DNA from: a virus
Lineage: Duplodnaviria > Heunggongvirae > Uroviricota > Caudoviricetes
Length of the DNA stretch: 64,000 nucleotides
IMG/VR virus record: IMGVR_UViG_2721755646_000005
Strand: one strand, 5' to 3'
Shown here: piece by piece, positions 36,001 to 45,000 of the stretch
How the letters are laid out: every line of letters starts with the position of its first letter
Numbering within the stretch: position 1 is the stretch's first letter
Made by a program: the position numbers

Positions 36001-39000
36001 GAAAAATACGCTTCTCACGCCCAATGAGGCCCGTAAACGGGAGAACCTGCCGCCCCTGGCCGGCGGTGATGCACTGTATCTTCAGCAGCAGAACTACAGT
36101 CTGGAGGCGCTGTCCCGTCGTGATGCCCGTGAGGATCCGTTCGCGTCTGCCGGGAAAACAGTTTCATCACAGCTGCCTGACGGCGCATCTGACGGTAATA
36201 AGGCAATCAGTGAAACAGAGCATGATGCGGTGAAAGCGATGTTCAGGGGGGATACTGAGAAAATGACGGAACGGGAACTGTCCATTATTCGTGCACTGGG
36301 AGAAGAATTTTCCACAGTGCTGGCGGATTTACAGCGCACATTTGAGGGGAAGATGGCCTCGCAGGCACAAGCGTTTGAAGAGAAACTGACTTCCCTGTCG
36401 GCGGTATTACAGAAGCATGTGACGGTGGATGAGGTGCGTCCGGTTCTGCAGGCGATGGTGGATGACGCTGTGGGGGCCATTCCGGTACCGCGTGATGGTC
36501 GTGATTATGATCCGGATGTACTGCAGCAGGCGGTGAATGATGCGGTCGCAAATATTCCGCAGCCGGCGGACGGTAAAAGTCTCACCCCGGATGATGTGCG
36601 TCCGATGCTTGAACAGATGGTGAAGGAGGCTGTAAGCCATATCCCTGTTCCGCGTGATGGTCGTGACTACGATCCGGAAGTACTGCAGAAGGCGGTGAAT
36701 GATGCGGTCGCAAATATTCCGCAGCCGGCGGACGGTAAAAGTCTCACCCCGGATGATGTGCGTCCGATGCTTGAACAGATGGTGAAAGAGGCTGTAAGCC
36801 ATATCCCTGTTCCGCGTGATGGTCGTGACTACGATCCGGAAGTACTGCAGAAGGCGGTGAATGATGCGGTCGCAAATATTCCGCAGCCGGCGGACGGTAA
36901 AAGTCTCACCCCGGATGATGTGCGTCCGATGCTTGAACAGATGGTGAAGGAGGCGGTAAGCCATATCCCTGTTCCGCGCGACGGTCGTGACTATGATCCG
37001 GAAGTACTGCAGAAGGCGGTGAATGATGCGGTCGCAAATATTCCGCAGCCGGCAGACGGTAAAAGTCTCACCCCGGATGATGTGCGTCCGATGCTTGAAC
37101 AGATGGTGAAGGAGGCGGTAAGCCATATTCCTGTTCCGCGTGATGGTCGTGACTACGATCCGGATGTTCTGCAGAAGGCGGTTCTGGATGCGGTGAGTGC
37201 CCTGCCGGCTCCGCAGGACTGGCGTGATGCCACGGCTCTGGAAATACTCCCCGCCATTGACGATCAAAAATCCTTTCCCCGGGGCACGTATGCCACACAC
37301 CAGGGCGGACTCTGGCGGGCGTATGAAAAAACGCACGGGATGCGGGGATGGGAATGCCTGGTTGACGGGGTGGCGGATATTGACGTCAGCATGACGGGTG
37401 AGCGGTTGTTCTCTGTGGTGGTCCGGCAGAGCAGTGGCCAGCGTACGGAAAAAACATTTTCCCTGCCGGTGATGCTCTACCGCGGTGTGTTCAGAGCCGG
37501 TGAAACCTACCACCCCGGCGATACGGTGACGTGGGGGGGCTCGCTGTGGCACTGCAACAGTATGACCGAAGATAAACCCGGAGAAGCTCATTCATCAGCC
37601 TGGACCCTGGCTGCAAAACGTGGGCGGGATGCAGGAGGCTGAAAATGACGGCATTACTGACACTGGAAGAGATCAAGGCACATCTGCGTGTCGACCATGA
37701 CGCGGATGATGACATGCTGATGGACAAGGTTCGTCAGGCTACCGCCGTGCTGCTGGCCTACATTCAGGGCAGCCGGGATAAGGTGATTCGTGAGGACGGT
37801 GAACTGATCCCGGGCGAGGCATTAACCCGGATGAAGGGGGCTGCCATGCGACTGACCGGGATGCTGTACCGGAATCCGGATCTTGCGGAGCGGGAAGAAC
37901 TGATTCAGGGGGAGCTGCCGTTTTCTGTTTCCGTGCTGATTTACGATTTGCGTTGTCCGACGGTGTTATGAGGAGGGGGAATGGCAATATCTGCAGGTCG
38001 TCTGACACAGATGATAAGTGTTCTGAACCCGGTGTTAACCCGTAATGCTGCCGGAGAAATGACGGAAGAATGGGTGTCATGCGGGAAAATTCATGCGGAT
38101 ATCCGTGGCAGGAGCAGCCGGGAGCGGATGCAGTCCGGTGCGGAAATGGCGCAGGCGGAAATCCGCATCTGGGTGCGCGGTCAGTCCGGTCGGGAAATCA
38201 CGGCAGCGTCACGACTTCATGTGCTGAGTGGTCCCTGGCGTGACCGGATCCTGAACGTTGTCGGGCTGCCCGTGCCGGATGCGACCGGCGGACGTCTGGA
38301 AATTCTCTGTCGGCTGGGAGGGGAAAAATGATCGAAACCCTGCTGGATTTTTCGGGGCTGGAGGACATCAGCCGCGATTTGCAGCTTCTGAGTGGTGCAG
38401 AAAATAACCGGGTGCTGCGTGAGGCAACCCGTGCGGGTGCGAATGTGCTGAAAGAAGAAGTGGTGTCACGGGCACCGGTACGCAGGGGAAAACTGCGCCG
38501 CAATGTGGTGGTCCTTTCCCGGCGCTCCCGCGATGGCGGGATGGAATCCGGTGTGCATATCCGGGGTGTTAATCCGGACACCGGTAACAGCGATAACACC
38601 ATGAAGGCGGATAACCCGCGCAACGCTTTCTACTGGCGGTTTGTGGAAATGGGGACCGTGAATATGCCACCGCACCCGTTTGTGCGCCCGGCATTTGATG
38701 TGCGCAGTGAACAGGCGGCACAGGTGGCGATTGCGCGGATGAACCGGGCCATTGATGAGGGTACTGAGACGATGACGGAGGCGGATTTGTATCCTCATCT
38801 GGCGCATCTTGCCGGCGGGCAGGTGTACCCGTATGTGGTCCCCCTGCTGGATGGCAGGCCGTCGGTGGCGCTTCCGTGGGTGGTTTTCAGCCTGATTTCA
38901 TCGGTGTCAGCGGACGTGATGGGCGGGCAGGCGGAGTCCTCAGTGTCGGTGCAGATAGACGTTTATGCCGGGACTGTGACGCAGGCGCGTCAGATACGTC

Positions 39001-42000: not shown

Positions 42001-45000
42001 AAAAATCTGGATAAGACACTTACCGTGAATACCGGTGCGCTGCTGACAATGTCAGTCAGTGCCAACGGGGGAACGCCGCCGTATAAATACGCCTGGAAGA
42101 AGGATGGTCAGCCGGTTGACGGGCAGACGACAGACACCTTCAGTAAGCCAGGTGCGCAGTCCGCTGATGCGGGGAAATATACCTGTGTGGTGACCGATTC
42201 GGCAGAGAAAGCACAGAGTGTGACGTCTGTTGAATGCACCGTGACAGTGAGCGCAGCCGCCGGATAAGGGGATGGGTCATCATGAAAAAGGATCTGAAAA
42301 CGCTGGCGCTGGCCAGACTGTCAGGGTTTCGTCATAAAACGGTGAAGGTGCCGGAATGGGGTAATGTCAGCGTGGTGCTGCGGGAGCCTTCGGCAGAGGC
42401 CTGGTATCTGTGGCAGGAAGTGCTCAATGGTGATGGAGAGGATGACGATACCCTTTCGGTGGTGGCGAAAACCCGCCGTAACCTGGAAGCGGATGTGACG
42501 CTGTTCTGCGATGTCCTGTGTGATACGGACCTGCAGCGGGTGTTCACTCCGGACGACCGTGAGCAGGTGCTGGCCGTCTATGGTCCGGTACATGCCCGGT
42601 TGCTGCGTCAGGCACTGGAACTGATCGCTGATGCAGAGTCGGCCAGAAAAAAGTAGCCCGCCCGGAAATTCGCTTTCTGATGCGACTTGCGCTCCGTCTG
42701 GGGCGCACCTTATCCGAACTGCGCCACAGCCTGAGTGCGAGCGAGGCGATGATGTGGATGGAGTTCGACAGGATATCCCCGCTGGGTGATGAGCGCGGGG
42801 ATATCCGTAATGCACAGATCGTGAAAGCGGTTTTCGGGGCACAGGGGATGAATGTTGCACTGAAGGACGCCATGCTCTGCTGGGGCGAGGATGAGGATAA
42901 GCCGGAGGTGGATCCGTTTGCGGCGCTGGAAGACGCGCTGAGCCTTGCAGCACAGTCATGAATGATGAGAACCGCTGAGGCGGTTTTTTTACGCCCGGAG
43001 AAAGGTGAATGGCGACGTTACGTGAACTGATTATCAAAATTTCGGCAAATTCACAGTCATTCCAGTCGGAGATCCAGCGGGCGTCCCGTATGGGCAGTGA
43101 ATATTACCGGACCCTGCAGAATGGCGGACGTCAGGCTGCTGCGGCAGCCAGGGAGCAGCGCCGGGCTCTGGCTGAGCTGCACAGCCAGTTGACGGAAATC
43201 CGCGCTTCGGCTGTCGGAATGACCGGTGCGTTTGCCGGTGCCTTTGCCACCGGACACCTGATTTCGCTGGCGGATGAATGGAGCTCCGTGAATGCCCGTC
43301 TGAAACAGGCGTCGCAGTCATCGGATGAATTTGCGTCATCACAGAAAGTGCTGATGGATATCAGCCAGCGGACAGGCACCGCATTTTCGGATAATGCGGC
43401 CCTGTTTGCCCGTTCGGCTGCCTCGATGCGTGAATATGGTTACAGTGCTGATGATGTGCTGAAGGTGACGGAGGCCATTTCGACAGGGCTGAAAATCTCC
43501 GGTGCCAGTACGGCAGAGGCGGGCTCGGTGATCACCCAGTTCAGTCAGGCGCTGGCGCAGGGTGTATTGCGTGGTGAGGAGTTTAATTCGGTCAATGAAA
43601 GTGGTGACCGGATCGTACGTGCACTGGCTGCGGGTATGGGCGTGGCCCGTAAAGATCTGAAGGCAATGGCGGATGACGGAAAACTGACAGCGGATAAAGT
43701 GGTCCCCGCGTTAATCAGCCAGCTGGGGATATTACGTGATGAATATGCGGCCATGCCGGAAACGGTTTCCAGTAGTATCACAAAGGTGGAAAACGCCTTT
43801 ATGGCCTGGGTGGGCGGTGCGAATGAGGCCAGCGGGGTGACAAAAACGCTCTCCGGCATGCTGAACGGTGTTGCCGGACAGATTGATAATGTGGCAACAG
43901 CCGTGGGCGCGCTGGTTGCCGTCGGGGTTGCCCGGTACTTTGGCAATATGGCCTCCGGAGCGATGTCTGCCACGGCAGGACTTGTGACGGCTGCACGTAA
44001 TGAAGTTGCACTGGCGGAAGCACAGTTCAGGGGAACGCAGATTGCCACGGCGCGGGCAAGGGCAGCCGTGTACCGTGCTCAGCAGGCCGTGGCGGCAGCC
44101 CGCGGGACGGAGATGCAGATTGCTGCAGAGGCCCGTCTGGCGGCCACACAGGAACGCCTGAACAGAAATATTGCTGCCAGAAGCGCCGCCCAGAATGCGC
44201 TGAACAGTACAACGGCGGTGGGCTCACGTCTGATGAGCGGTGCGCTGGGGCTGGTTGGTGGCGTACCCGGACTGGTGATGCTGGGGGCTGCAGCATGGTA
44301 CACGCTGTACCAGAATCAGGAGCAGGCCAGGGAGTCTGCGCGCCAGTATGCACTGACGATAGATGAAATCGCGCATAAAACGCCGTCAATGTCTTTGCCT
44401 GAAGCCTCAGATAATGAAGGACGAACACGGGCGGCGCTGACAGAGCAGAACCGGCTGATTGATGAACAGGCCAGTCGGGTGAAATCCCTGCAGGAAAAAA
44501 TCGCAGGATATCAGTATGTTCTGGCGAACCCGGGCTGGACGACCGGTGACGGATTCATGATAAACCATCTGACATCGGTGAAGACCGTAACGGAAGGGCT
44601 TTCTCAGGCAACAGAGCAGCTTGCCGTTGAGCAGTCCCGTCTGGCACAGATGCAGGAAAAAGCGCAGTCCATTCAGGATGTGCTTGCCGGGCTGGAAGAC
44701 CGTCGTGTGGCGTTAATTCGTCAGCAGGCGGCAGAGCAGAATAAGGTGTACCAGTCCATGCTGGTTATGAACGGTCAGCATACGGAATTCAACCGTCTGC
44801 TGGGGCTGGGGAATGAACTGCTTCAGCAGCGTCAGGGACTGGTGAATGTACCGTTACGGCTGCCGCAGGCCACCCTGGATGATAAACAGCAGAGTGCCCT
44901 GACAAAAACAGAGCGTGAGCTGGCCCTGTCCAGACTGAAAGGGGAAGAAAAAGAGCGTGTCCGACTGGGGTATGCGGCGGATGACCTCGGTTTTGTGGGT

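What the first reader, a model, noticed from the sequence alone, without database searches (positions are those of the whole stretch)
37559..42300. Tandem duplication of the head-tail joining/major tail module with indel-only differences
A ~2.37-kb block is present twice in direct tandem. The copies differ by about 13 single-base indels, mostly in short homopolymer runs, and by no substitutions that I could see. Each copy carries a different broken gene: copy B has a frameshifted connector gene, copy A a frameshifted major tail gene, and two tail-component genes are fused in A but separate in B. Real divergence elsewhere in this window (the ant C-termini at 18.7 and 48.6 kb) is dominated by substitutions, so an assembly or sequencing artefact is the leading explanation. 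A real, recent duplication would be unusual for a packaged genome.
Basis: seen in the sequence. Interest (0 to 1): 0.7.

Follow-up and report, generated by a model that had tools for sequence, protein, structure and literature searches.

The report
Untrimmed contig overlap, not a duplication
The apparent tandem duplication of phage head-tail and tail genes is almost certainly the same 2.37 kb of an E. coli O157 Stx2c prophage written twice where two long-read contig ends were joined without trimming, so it is an assembly artefact and not biology.

Summary
Window 37558-39929 and 39930-42299 are one 2.37-kb block in direct tandem, differing by exactly 13 single-base indels and no substitutions.

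The window is E. coli O157 strain 644-PT8 (NZ_CP015831.1), an Stx2c prophage at sbcB. The evidence points to an artefact:
- **Odd alleles:** at all 13 sites one allele is seen in 0 of 53 relatives. Eleven odd alleles are in copy A and two in copy B.
- **Clustering:** 12 of the 13 lie within 530 nt of the A/B junction (P about 1.6e-7).
- **Indel rate:** 2.7 per kb inside the block against 0.017 per kb in the rest of the window.
- **Sister strain:** 180-PT54 is single copy. Deleting window 37682-40051 gives 61,630 nt matching it with 0 mismatches and 2 one-base gaps, and all five genes become intact.
- **Junction:** it occurs in 1 of 5,426 complete E. coli genomes and in 0 IMG/VR contigs.
- **Assembly history:** the source paper reports PacBio contigs joined by hand.

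The best explanation is an untrimmed overlap of two low-coverage contig ends. This is not a real feature, and interest is low.

The parts
37558..39929 (+). Copy A of the duplicated block, read as the 3' end of one contig. It carries 11 private single-base indel errors: an extra G at 38759, then 10 errors between 39405 and 39917. The last 3 nt (TGG) fit the true ...GAAAACGCTGG with ACGC dropped.
39927..39929 (.). The A/B junction. It has a 3-nt TGG filler and no microhomology between the block ends beyond AA.
39930..42299 (+). Copy B of the duplicated block, read as the 5' end of the next contig. It carries 2 private single-base deletions, at 40013/40014 and 40051/40052, and is otherwise the correct sequence.
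34901..37642 (+). Portal gene (913 aa, Pfam Phage_portal). The duplicated block starts 85 nt before its stop codon, which creates a spurious portal fragment at 39931-40014.
37645..37971 (+). gp6-like head-tail connector gene. The copy A version is intact and is the true gene.
37981..38331 (+). Head completion/closure gene in copy A. It is intact and identical to the copy B gene at 40351-40701.
38328..39116 (+). Spurious 262-aa fusion of the HK97-gp10-like and gp17 genes in copy A, caused by the extra G at 38759.
39182..39863 (+). Major tail gene in copy A, broken by multiple private indels. PGAP annotates it as a frameshifted, incomplete pseudogene.
40016..40341 (+). Connector gene in copy B, frameshifted by copy B's private deletions at its 5' end (40013/40014, just upstream of the annotated start, and 40051/40052, inside the gene). 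PGAP annotates it as a pseudogene.
40698..41144 (+). HK97-gp10-like tail component gene. The copy B version is intact and is the true gene.
41141..41485 (+). gp17 tail completion gene. The copy B version is intact and is the true gene.
41551..42267 (+). Major tail (tail tube plus Ig domain) gene. The copy B version is intact and is the true gene.
37682..40051 (.). The 2,370 nt whose removal restores a single-copy module. The result is collinear with sister strain 180-PT54 and all five genes are intact.

Best explanation
The block is present once in the real genome. In the deposited record of E. coli O157 strain 644-PT8, two long-read contig ends that overlapped by about 2.37 kb were concatenated without removing the overlap, so the same DNA is written twice.

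Consensus quality falls where read coverage thins toward a contig end. Low-coverage PacBio consensus fails mainly by single-base insertions and deletions, mostly in short homopolymers. That accounts for the indel-only differences and for their position next to the junction.

The real biology is an ordinary single-copy, HK97/lambda-style head-tail joining and tail module in an Stx2c prophage at sbcB: portal, gp6-like connector, head completion, gp10-like, gp17 tail completion, major tail.

Shown here: the duplication; which copy is wrong at each site; the clustering of errors; single copy in the sister strain and elsewhere; and a documented history of hand-built assembly.

Inferred: which two contig ends were involved. 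The most likely case is the two ends of the large contig at its circularisation point, later moved inside the record when it was rotated to oriC.
For: 1. The window is NZ_CP015831.1, matching at 100%. All other top hits span 5,469 nt against 8,001, meaning a single copy of the block and one fewer 162-nt repeat.

2. Against Sakai Sp12, copy A has 11 private indels (one at 38759, ten within 39405-39917) and copy B has 2 (40013 and 40051). Both copies share the same 4 substitutions relative to Sakai, so they are the same allele written twice.

3. Against sister strain 180-PT54 there are 0 substitutions in 61.6 kb and only 1 indel outside the block, a G8/G9 run at 30185.

4. Twelve of the 13 indels lie within 530 nt of the junction (binomial P = 1.6e-7; in 1,000,000 random placements of the 13 indels the median distance reached the observed value in 1 and the mean distance in none). 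The indel rate is 2.74 per kb inside the block against 0.017 per kb outside, a 162-fold difference.

5. At every one of the 13 sites the odd allele occurs in 0 of 53 relatives, while the other allele occurs in 7 to 46.

6. The A-end and B-start variants are unique among 5,426 complete E. coli genomes. A 301-nt query across the junction is held by 1 genome only. It is in 0 IMG/VR contigs, although 51 of them hold the start of the unit.

7. Deleting 37682-40051 gives 61,630 nt with 0 mismatches and 2 one-base gaps against 180-PT54, and five intact genes.

8. The source paper (PMC5320650) reports PacBio RS II P5-C3 sequencing, PBcR and Celera assembly, and Quiver polishing. Strain 644-PT8 gave two contigs. 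A contig of about 200 kb was inserted by hand, twice, into the larger one using MinION and optical-map guidance, and the sequence was then rotated to oriC. Trimming of duplicated contig ends is described only for 180-PT54.

9. Table 1 of that paper together gives a net length gain of 2,368 nt over about 170 kb between the two strains. That gain is the duplication alone.
Against: No raw reads or per-base quality values could be examined, so coverage and junction-spanning reads are untested.

Neither end variant recurs elsewhere in the record. The junction is therefore not demonstrably one of the four documented insertion joins of the 200-kb contig, and the exact join that produced it is inferred.

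One copy A error (38759) lies 1.17 kb from the junction, further than the rest.
Confidence: 0.93

Rival explanations
1. The join is specifically one of the four boundaries created when the roughly 200-kb contig was pasted twice into the large contig. This is still an artefact, only a different join.
For: The paper states that the small contig was inserted twice by hand. The record is 322 kb longer than 180-PT54.
Against: Both flanks of the junction are collinear with 180-PT54 at the native position. The backbone stays collinear through 2.30-2.35 Mb.

The A-end and B-start sequences, with their private errors, each occur only once in the record. A contig pasted twice should carry its end errors twice.
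Confidence: 0.08
2. A genuine, very recent tandem duplication exists in strain 644-PT8, and the 13 indels are consensus errors.
For: The duplication is in the deposited sequence. Prophage regions of O157 do rearrange, and the paper reports real structural change in this strain.
Against: Reads of 10-20 kb would span a 4.7-kb tandem repeat and anchor in unique flanks, giving normal coverage and accuracy. Instead the error rate is 162-fold higher and peaks at the junction.

The junction has a 3-nt filler and no microhomology. The sister strain, 3 core SNPs away, is single copy. The junction is in no other genome or viral contig.
Confidence: 0.03
3. A genuine duplication was followed by real frameshift mutations, leaving a different gene inactivated in each copy.
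For: Each copy carries different broken genes.
Against: Thirteen indels and no substitutions is not a natural mutation spectrum. Between this prophage and Sakai Sp12, the same 8 kb shows 10 distinct substitutions and no other single-base indel.

The time available since the split from 180-PT54 is about one year. The indels cluster at the junction.
Confidence: 0.005

Closest known systems
Untrimmed terminal or contig-end overlaps in long-read (PacBio HGAP or Celera) bacterial assemblies
   Same: There is a direct repeat of a few kb at a join. The copies differ only by homopolymer-type indels, and the errors increase toward the contig ends. The repeat disappears in related assemblies. The record was rotated after assembly, so the join lies inside the sequence.
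   Different: The specific join is not recorded in the paper. It does not coincide with the documented double insertion of the 200-kb contig.
Stx2c-converting prophages at sbcB (for example phage 2851), and the late region of Sakai prophage Sp12
   Same: Integration is next to sbcB. The window carries stx2c and the same gene order. Identity to the Sp12 late region is 99.2% and to phage 2851 is 99.1% over the parts that align.
   Different: Those relatives have the head-tail and tail module once. Sp12 also has one fewer 162-nt repeat in the portal gene.
Genuine prophage-mediated duplications in E. coli O157:H7 (large chromosomal rearrangements; PMC8743559)
   Same: The organism is the same and the setting is a prophage.
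   Different: Those events are tens to hundreds of kb and are bounded by homologous prophages. This block is 2.37 kb, lies within one prophage, has a junction without homology, and carries error-type differences.

Membership tests
Contig-end overlap assembly artefact | The two copies are the same allele and differ only by consensus-type errors (indels, no substitutions). | tested here: met
   There are 0 mismatches and 13 one-base indels. Both copies share the same 4 SNPs relative to Sakai.
Contig-end overlap assembly artefact | Errors are concentrated toward the join: the 3' end of the upstream copy and the 5' end of the downstream copy. | tested here: met
   Copy A has 10 errors in its last 530 nt. 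Copy B has 2 in its first 122 nt. P = 1.6e-7.
Contig-end overlap assembly artefact | The closest independent assemblies are single copy, and the junction is private to the record. | tested here: met
   180-PT54 is single copy. The junction is in 1 of 5,426 genomes and 0 IMG/VR contigs.
Contig-end overlap assembly artefact | The assembly history includes joins of long-read contigs. | tested here: met
   PMC5320650 reports two PacBio contigs, manual insertion and rotation to oriC.
Contig-end overlap assembly artefact | No reads span the junction, and read depth is single copy. | not testable with these tools
Genuine tandem duplication | The junction is explained by homology or microhomology between the ends of the unit. 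| tested here: not met
   The junction reads ...GGATCTGAAA-TGG-CAGTATGACC..., and only AA is shared by the two ends.
Genuine tandem duplication | Differences between the copies follow a natural mutation spectrum and occur in real populations. | tested here: not met
   The 13 odd alleles occur in 0 of 53 relatives and are unique among 5,426 genomes.
HK97/lambda-type head-tail joining and tail module (for the underlying genes) | Portal, gp6-like connector, head completion, gp10-like, tail completion and tail tube genes occur in this order. | tested here: met
   Pfam hits: Phage_portal, Phage_connect_1, Phage_HCP, HK97-gp10_like, Tail_completion_gp17, and Phage_TTP_11 / Phage_tail_2 (both just below their curated cut-offs) plus Ig domains above theirs. 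The PGAP names agree.

The most novel reading that the evidence does not exclude
Strain 644-PT8 really carries a tandem duplication of the head-tail joining and major tail module that arose within about a year of its split from 180-PT54, and the deposited consensus over it is simply poor.
Probability: 0.03. Interest if true: 0.2.

Novelty: not a real feature. Interest (0 to 1): 0.04.

Why it matters
This has no biological significance. Its value is as a data-quality flag for NZ_CP015831.1.
- The record contains 2,370 spurious bases at 2,124,333-2,129,074.
- It has five spurious or broken gene models there: a portal fragment, a frameshifted connector, a truncated gp10-like gene, a frameshifted major tail gene, and duplicate head-closure and gp17 genes.
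- The Stx2c prophage length is inflated.

Comparative studies that count 'unique' or pseudogenised prophage genes in this strain, or that measure prophage size, would be misled. The same hand-built record may hold other join artefacts.

Tried and rejected
1. I tested whether the junction is a boundary of the 200-kb contig that the paper says was pasted in twice. Searches with strict E-value limits, which admit only near-perfect matches, showed that the A-end and B-start variants each occur once in the record. This was rejected as the specific cause.

2. I tried to locate the second copy of the 200-kb repeat from backbone queries. The 644-PT8 row was not listed among hundreds of tied 100% hits, so this was uninformative.

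3. I sampled the record's annotation at 2.30-2.35 Mb and 2.655-2.705 Mb. The first stretch is collinear backbone. The second shows that gene order has flipped (potB to icd, ascending), confirming large-scale rearrangement elsewhere, but it does not bear on this junction. I did not pursue it.

4. Later papers that cite the accession do not mention the 2.37-kb repeat.

5. Tandem Repeats Finder cannot report a 2,370-nt period because its limit is 500.

Full report
**What is in the sequence.** Window 37558-39926 and 39930-42299 align in 14 ungapped blocks with no mismatch and 13 single-base indels. Three bases (TGG, 39927-39929) lie at the junction. Eleven of the 13 indels change the length of a run of 2 to 5 identical bases, and two are isolated C bases. 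The ORF list and the public annotation confirm the gene consequences:
- The connector gene is intact in copy A and frameshifted in copy B.
- The major tail gene is broken in A and intact in B.
- The gp10-like and gp17 genes are fused in A by an extra G at 38759 and are separate in B.

Pfam confirms the genes as portal, gp6-like connector, head completion protein, HK97-gp10-like, gp17 tail completion, and a tail tube protein with an Ig domain.

**Where the window comes from.** The region matches NZ_CP015831.1, E. coli O157 strain 644-PT8, at 100% in one piece. The annotation shows an Stx2c prophage integrated between sbcB and dacD. All other top genomes, including Sakai prophage Sp12 and EDL933, cover the same 8,001-nt query in 5,469 nt. 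That is a single copy of the block and one fewer 162-nt repeat in the portal gene. Sequenced Stx phages are likewise single copy.

**Which copy is wrong, and where.** Against Sakai Sp12, copy A differs by 11 single-base indels: one at 38759 and ten between 39405 and 39917. Copy B differs by two, at 40013 and 40051. Both copies share the same four substitutions relative to Sakai, so they are the same allele written twice.

The sister outbreak strain 180-PT54 (NZ_CP015832.1) is three core SNPs away. It was assembled independently into one contig and has the block once. Across 61.6 kb the window shows no substitution against it. There is one indel outside the block (a G8/G9 run at 30185), the 11 and 2 private indels, and one indel shared by both copies. 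That shared indel is 180-PT54's own extra C, which leaves its major tail gene annotated as frameshifted.

Further tests agree:
- At all 13 sites the odd allele is found in 0 of 53 relatives (51 IMG/VR contigs, Sakai, 180-PT54), while the other allele is found in 7 to 46.
- The A-end and B-start sequences carrying these indels are unique among 5,426 complete E. coli genomes.
- Twelve of the 13 indels lie within 530 nt of the junction (binomial P = 1.6e-7).
- The indel rate inside the block is 162 times that in the rest of the window.

**The junction.** A 301-nt query across the junction is held by one genome only, 644-PT8 itself. A gapped pattern for the junction finds nothing in 2.9 million viral contigs, although 51 of them hold the start of the unit once each. 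The junction has a 3-nt filler and no useful homology between the ends of the unit. The filler fits the true downstream sequence GAAAACGCTGG with ACGC dropped, which is what a noisy contig tip would look like. That last point is my inference.

**Repair test.** Deleting window 37682-40051 (2,370 nt) keeps copy A's correct bases at sites 1-2 and copy B's at sites 3-13. The result is 61,630 nt that align end to end with 180-PT54, with 0 mismatches and 2 one-base gaps. The connector, head completion, gp10-like, gp17 and major tail genes are all intact.

**Assembly history.** The source paper (PMC5320650) reports PacBio RS II P5-C3 reads, PBcR self-correction, Celera Assembler 8.1 and Quiver polishing. 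Strain 644-PT8 gave two contigs. [quoted passage not shown] Removal of duplicated contig ends is described only for 180-PT54. The paper's SNP table together gives coordinate offsets of -813 before the window and +1,555 after it. The net gain is 2,368 nt, which is the duplication alone.

**Interpretation.** The block is single copy in the real genome. Two contig ends that overlapped by about 2.37 kb were concatenated without trimming. Coverage thins at contig ends, and low-coverage PacBio consensus fails by single-base indels, which explains both the kind of differences and where they sit.

Which ends were joined is inferred. The two end variants are not repeated elsewhere in the record, and both flanks are at their native position. 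The junction is therefore probably not one of the four joins of the pasted 200-kb contig. The likeliest case is the circularisation point of the large contig, moved inside the record by the later rotation.

A genuine duplication is not strictly excluded without reads. It would, however, need normal long-read coverage to yield a 162-fold error excess peaking exactly at the junction, and it would need to be absent from a sister strain about one year diverged.

**Verdict.** This is not a real biological feature. Its only use is as a quality flag on NZ_CP015831.1.

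Noticed in passing
window 36488-37182: The portal gene (913 aa) has a 162-nt (54-aa) tandem repeat of 4.3 copies at 96% match in its C-terminal half. There is one more unit (36626-36787) than in Sakai Sp12. The same protein (WP_077882900.1) is in the independently assembled 180-PT54, so this copy-number difference looks real. Pfam does not recognise the repeat.
   Followed up: partly
window 6218-7527 and 9833-11142: Two IS1203 (IS3-family) copies, 100% identical, lie in inverted orientation 2.3 kb apart in the prophage early region. 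One splits a DUF2528 gene. The same arrangement is in 180-PT54. The Stx2c prophage may be crippled, or the intervening segment may be invertible.
   Followed up: no
window 30185: A G8 run here is G9 in 180-PT54, in the intergenic gap between the HNH endonuclease gene and the small terminase gene. This is the only difference between the two strains in the window outside the duplicated block. It is probably a homopolymer consensus error in one of the two records.
   Followed up: no
L007 6770-7487 (NZ_CP015832.1 2126770-2127487): The 180-PT54 record has an extra C in its major tail gene, which is annotated as frameshifted. That C is absent from both copies in the window and from Sakai, so it is probably a consensus error in that record.
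   Followed up: partly
window 17762-19033 and 48587-48886: There are three fragmentary antirepressor-type pseudogenes (ORF6N and P22AR C-terminal domains) upstream of an intact ant gene. A 300-nt stretch is 92% identical, by substitutions only, to the second ant gene in the tail region.
   Followed up: no
L009 (NZ_CP015831.1 2655000-2704999) and the whole record: At about 2.67 Mb the backbone runs potB to icd in the opposite direction to the window's backbone. The record is also 322 kb longer than 180-PT54, more than one extra 200-kb copy would add. Because the record was built by hand, its large-scale structure, and possibly other joins, deserve checking.
   Followed up: partly
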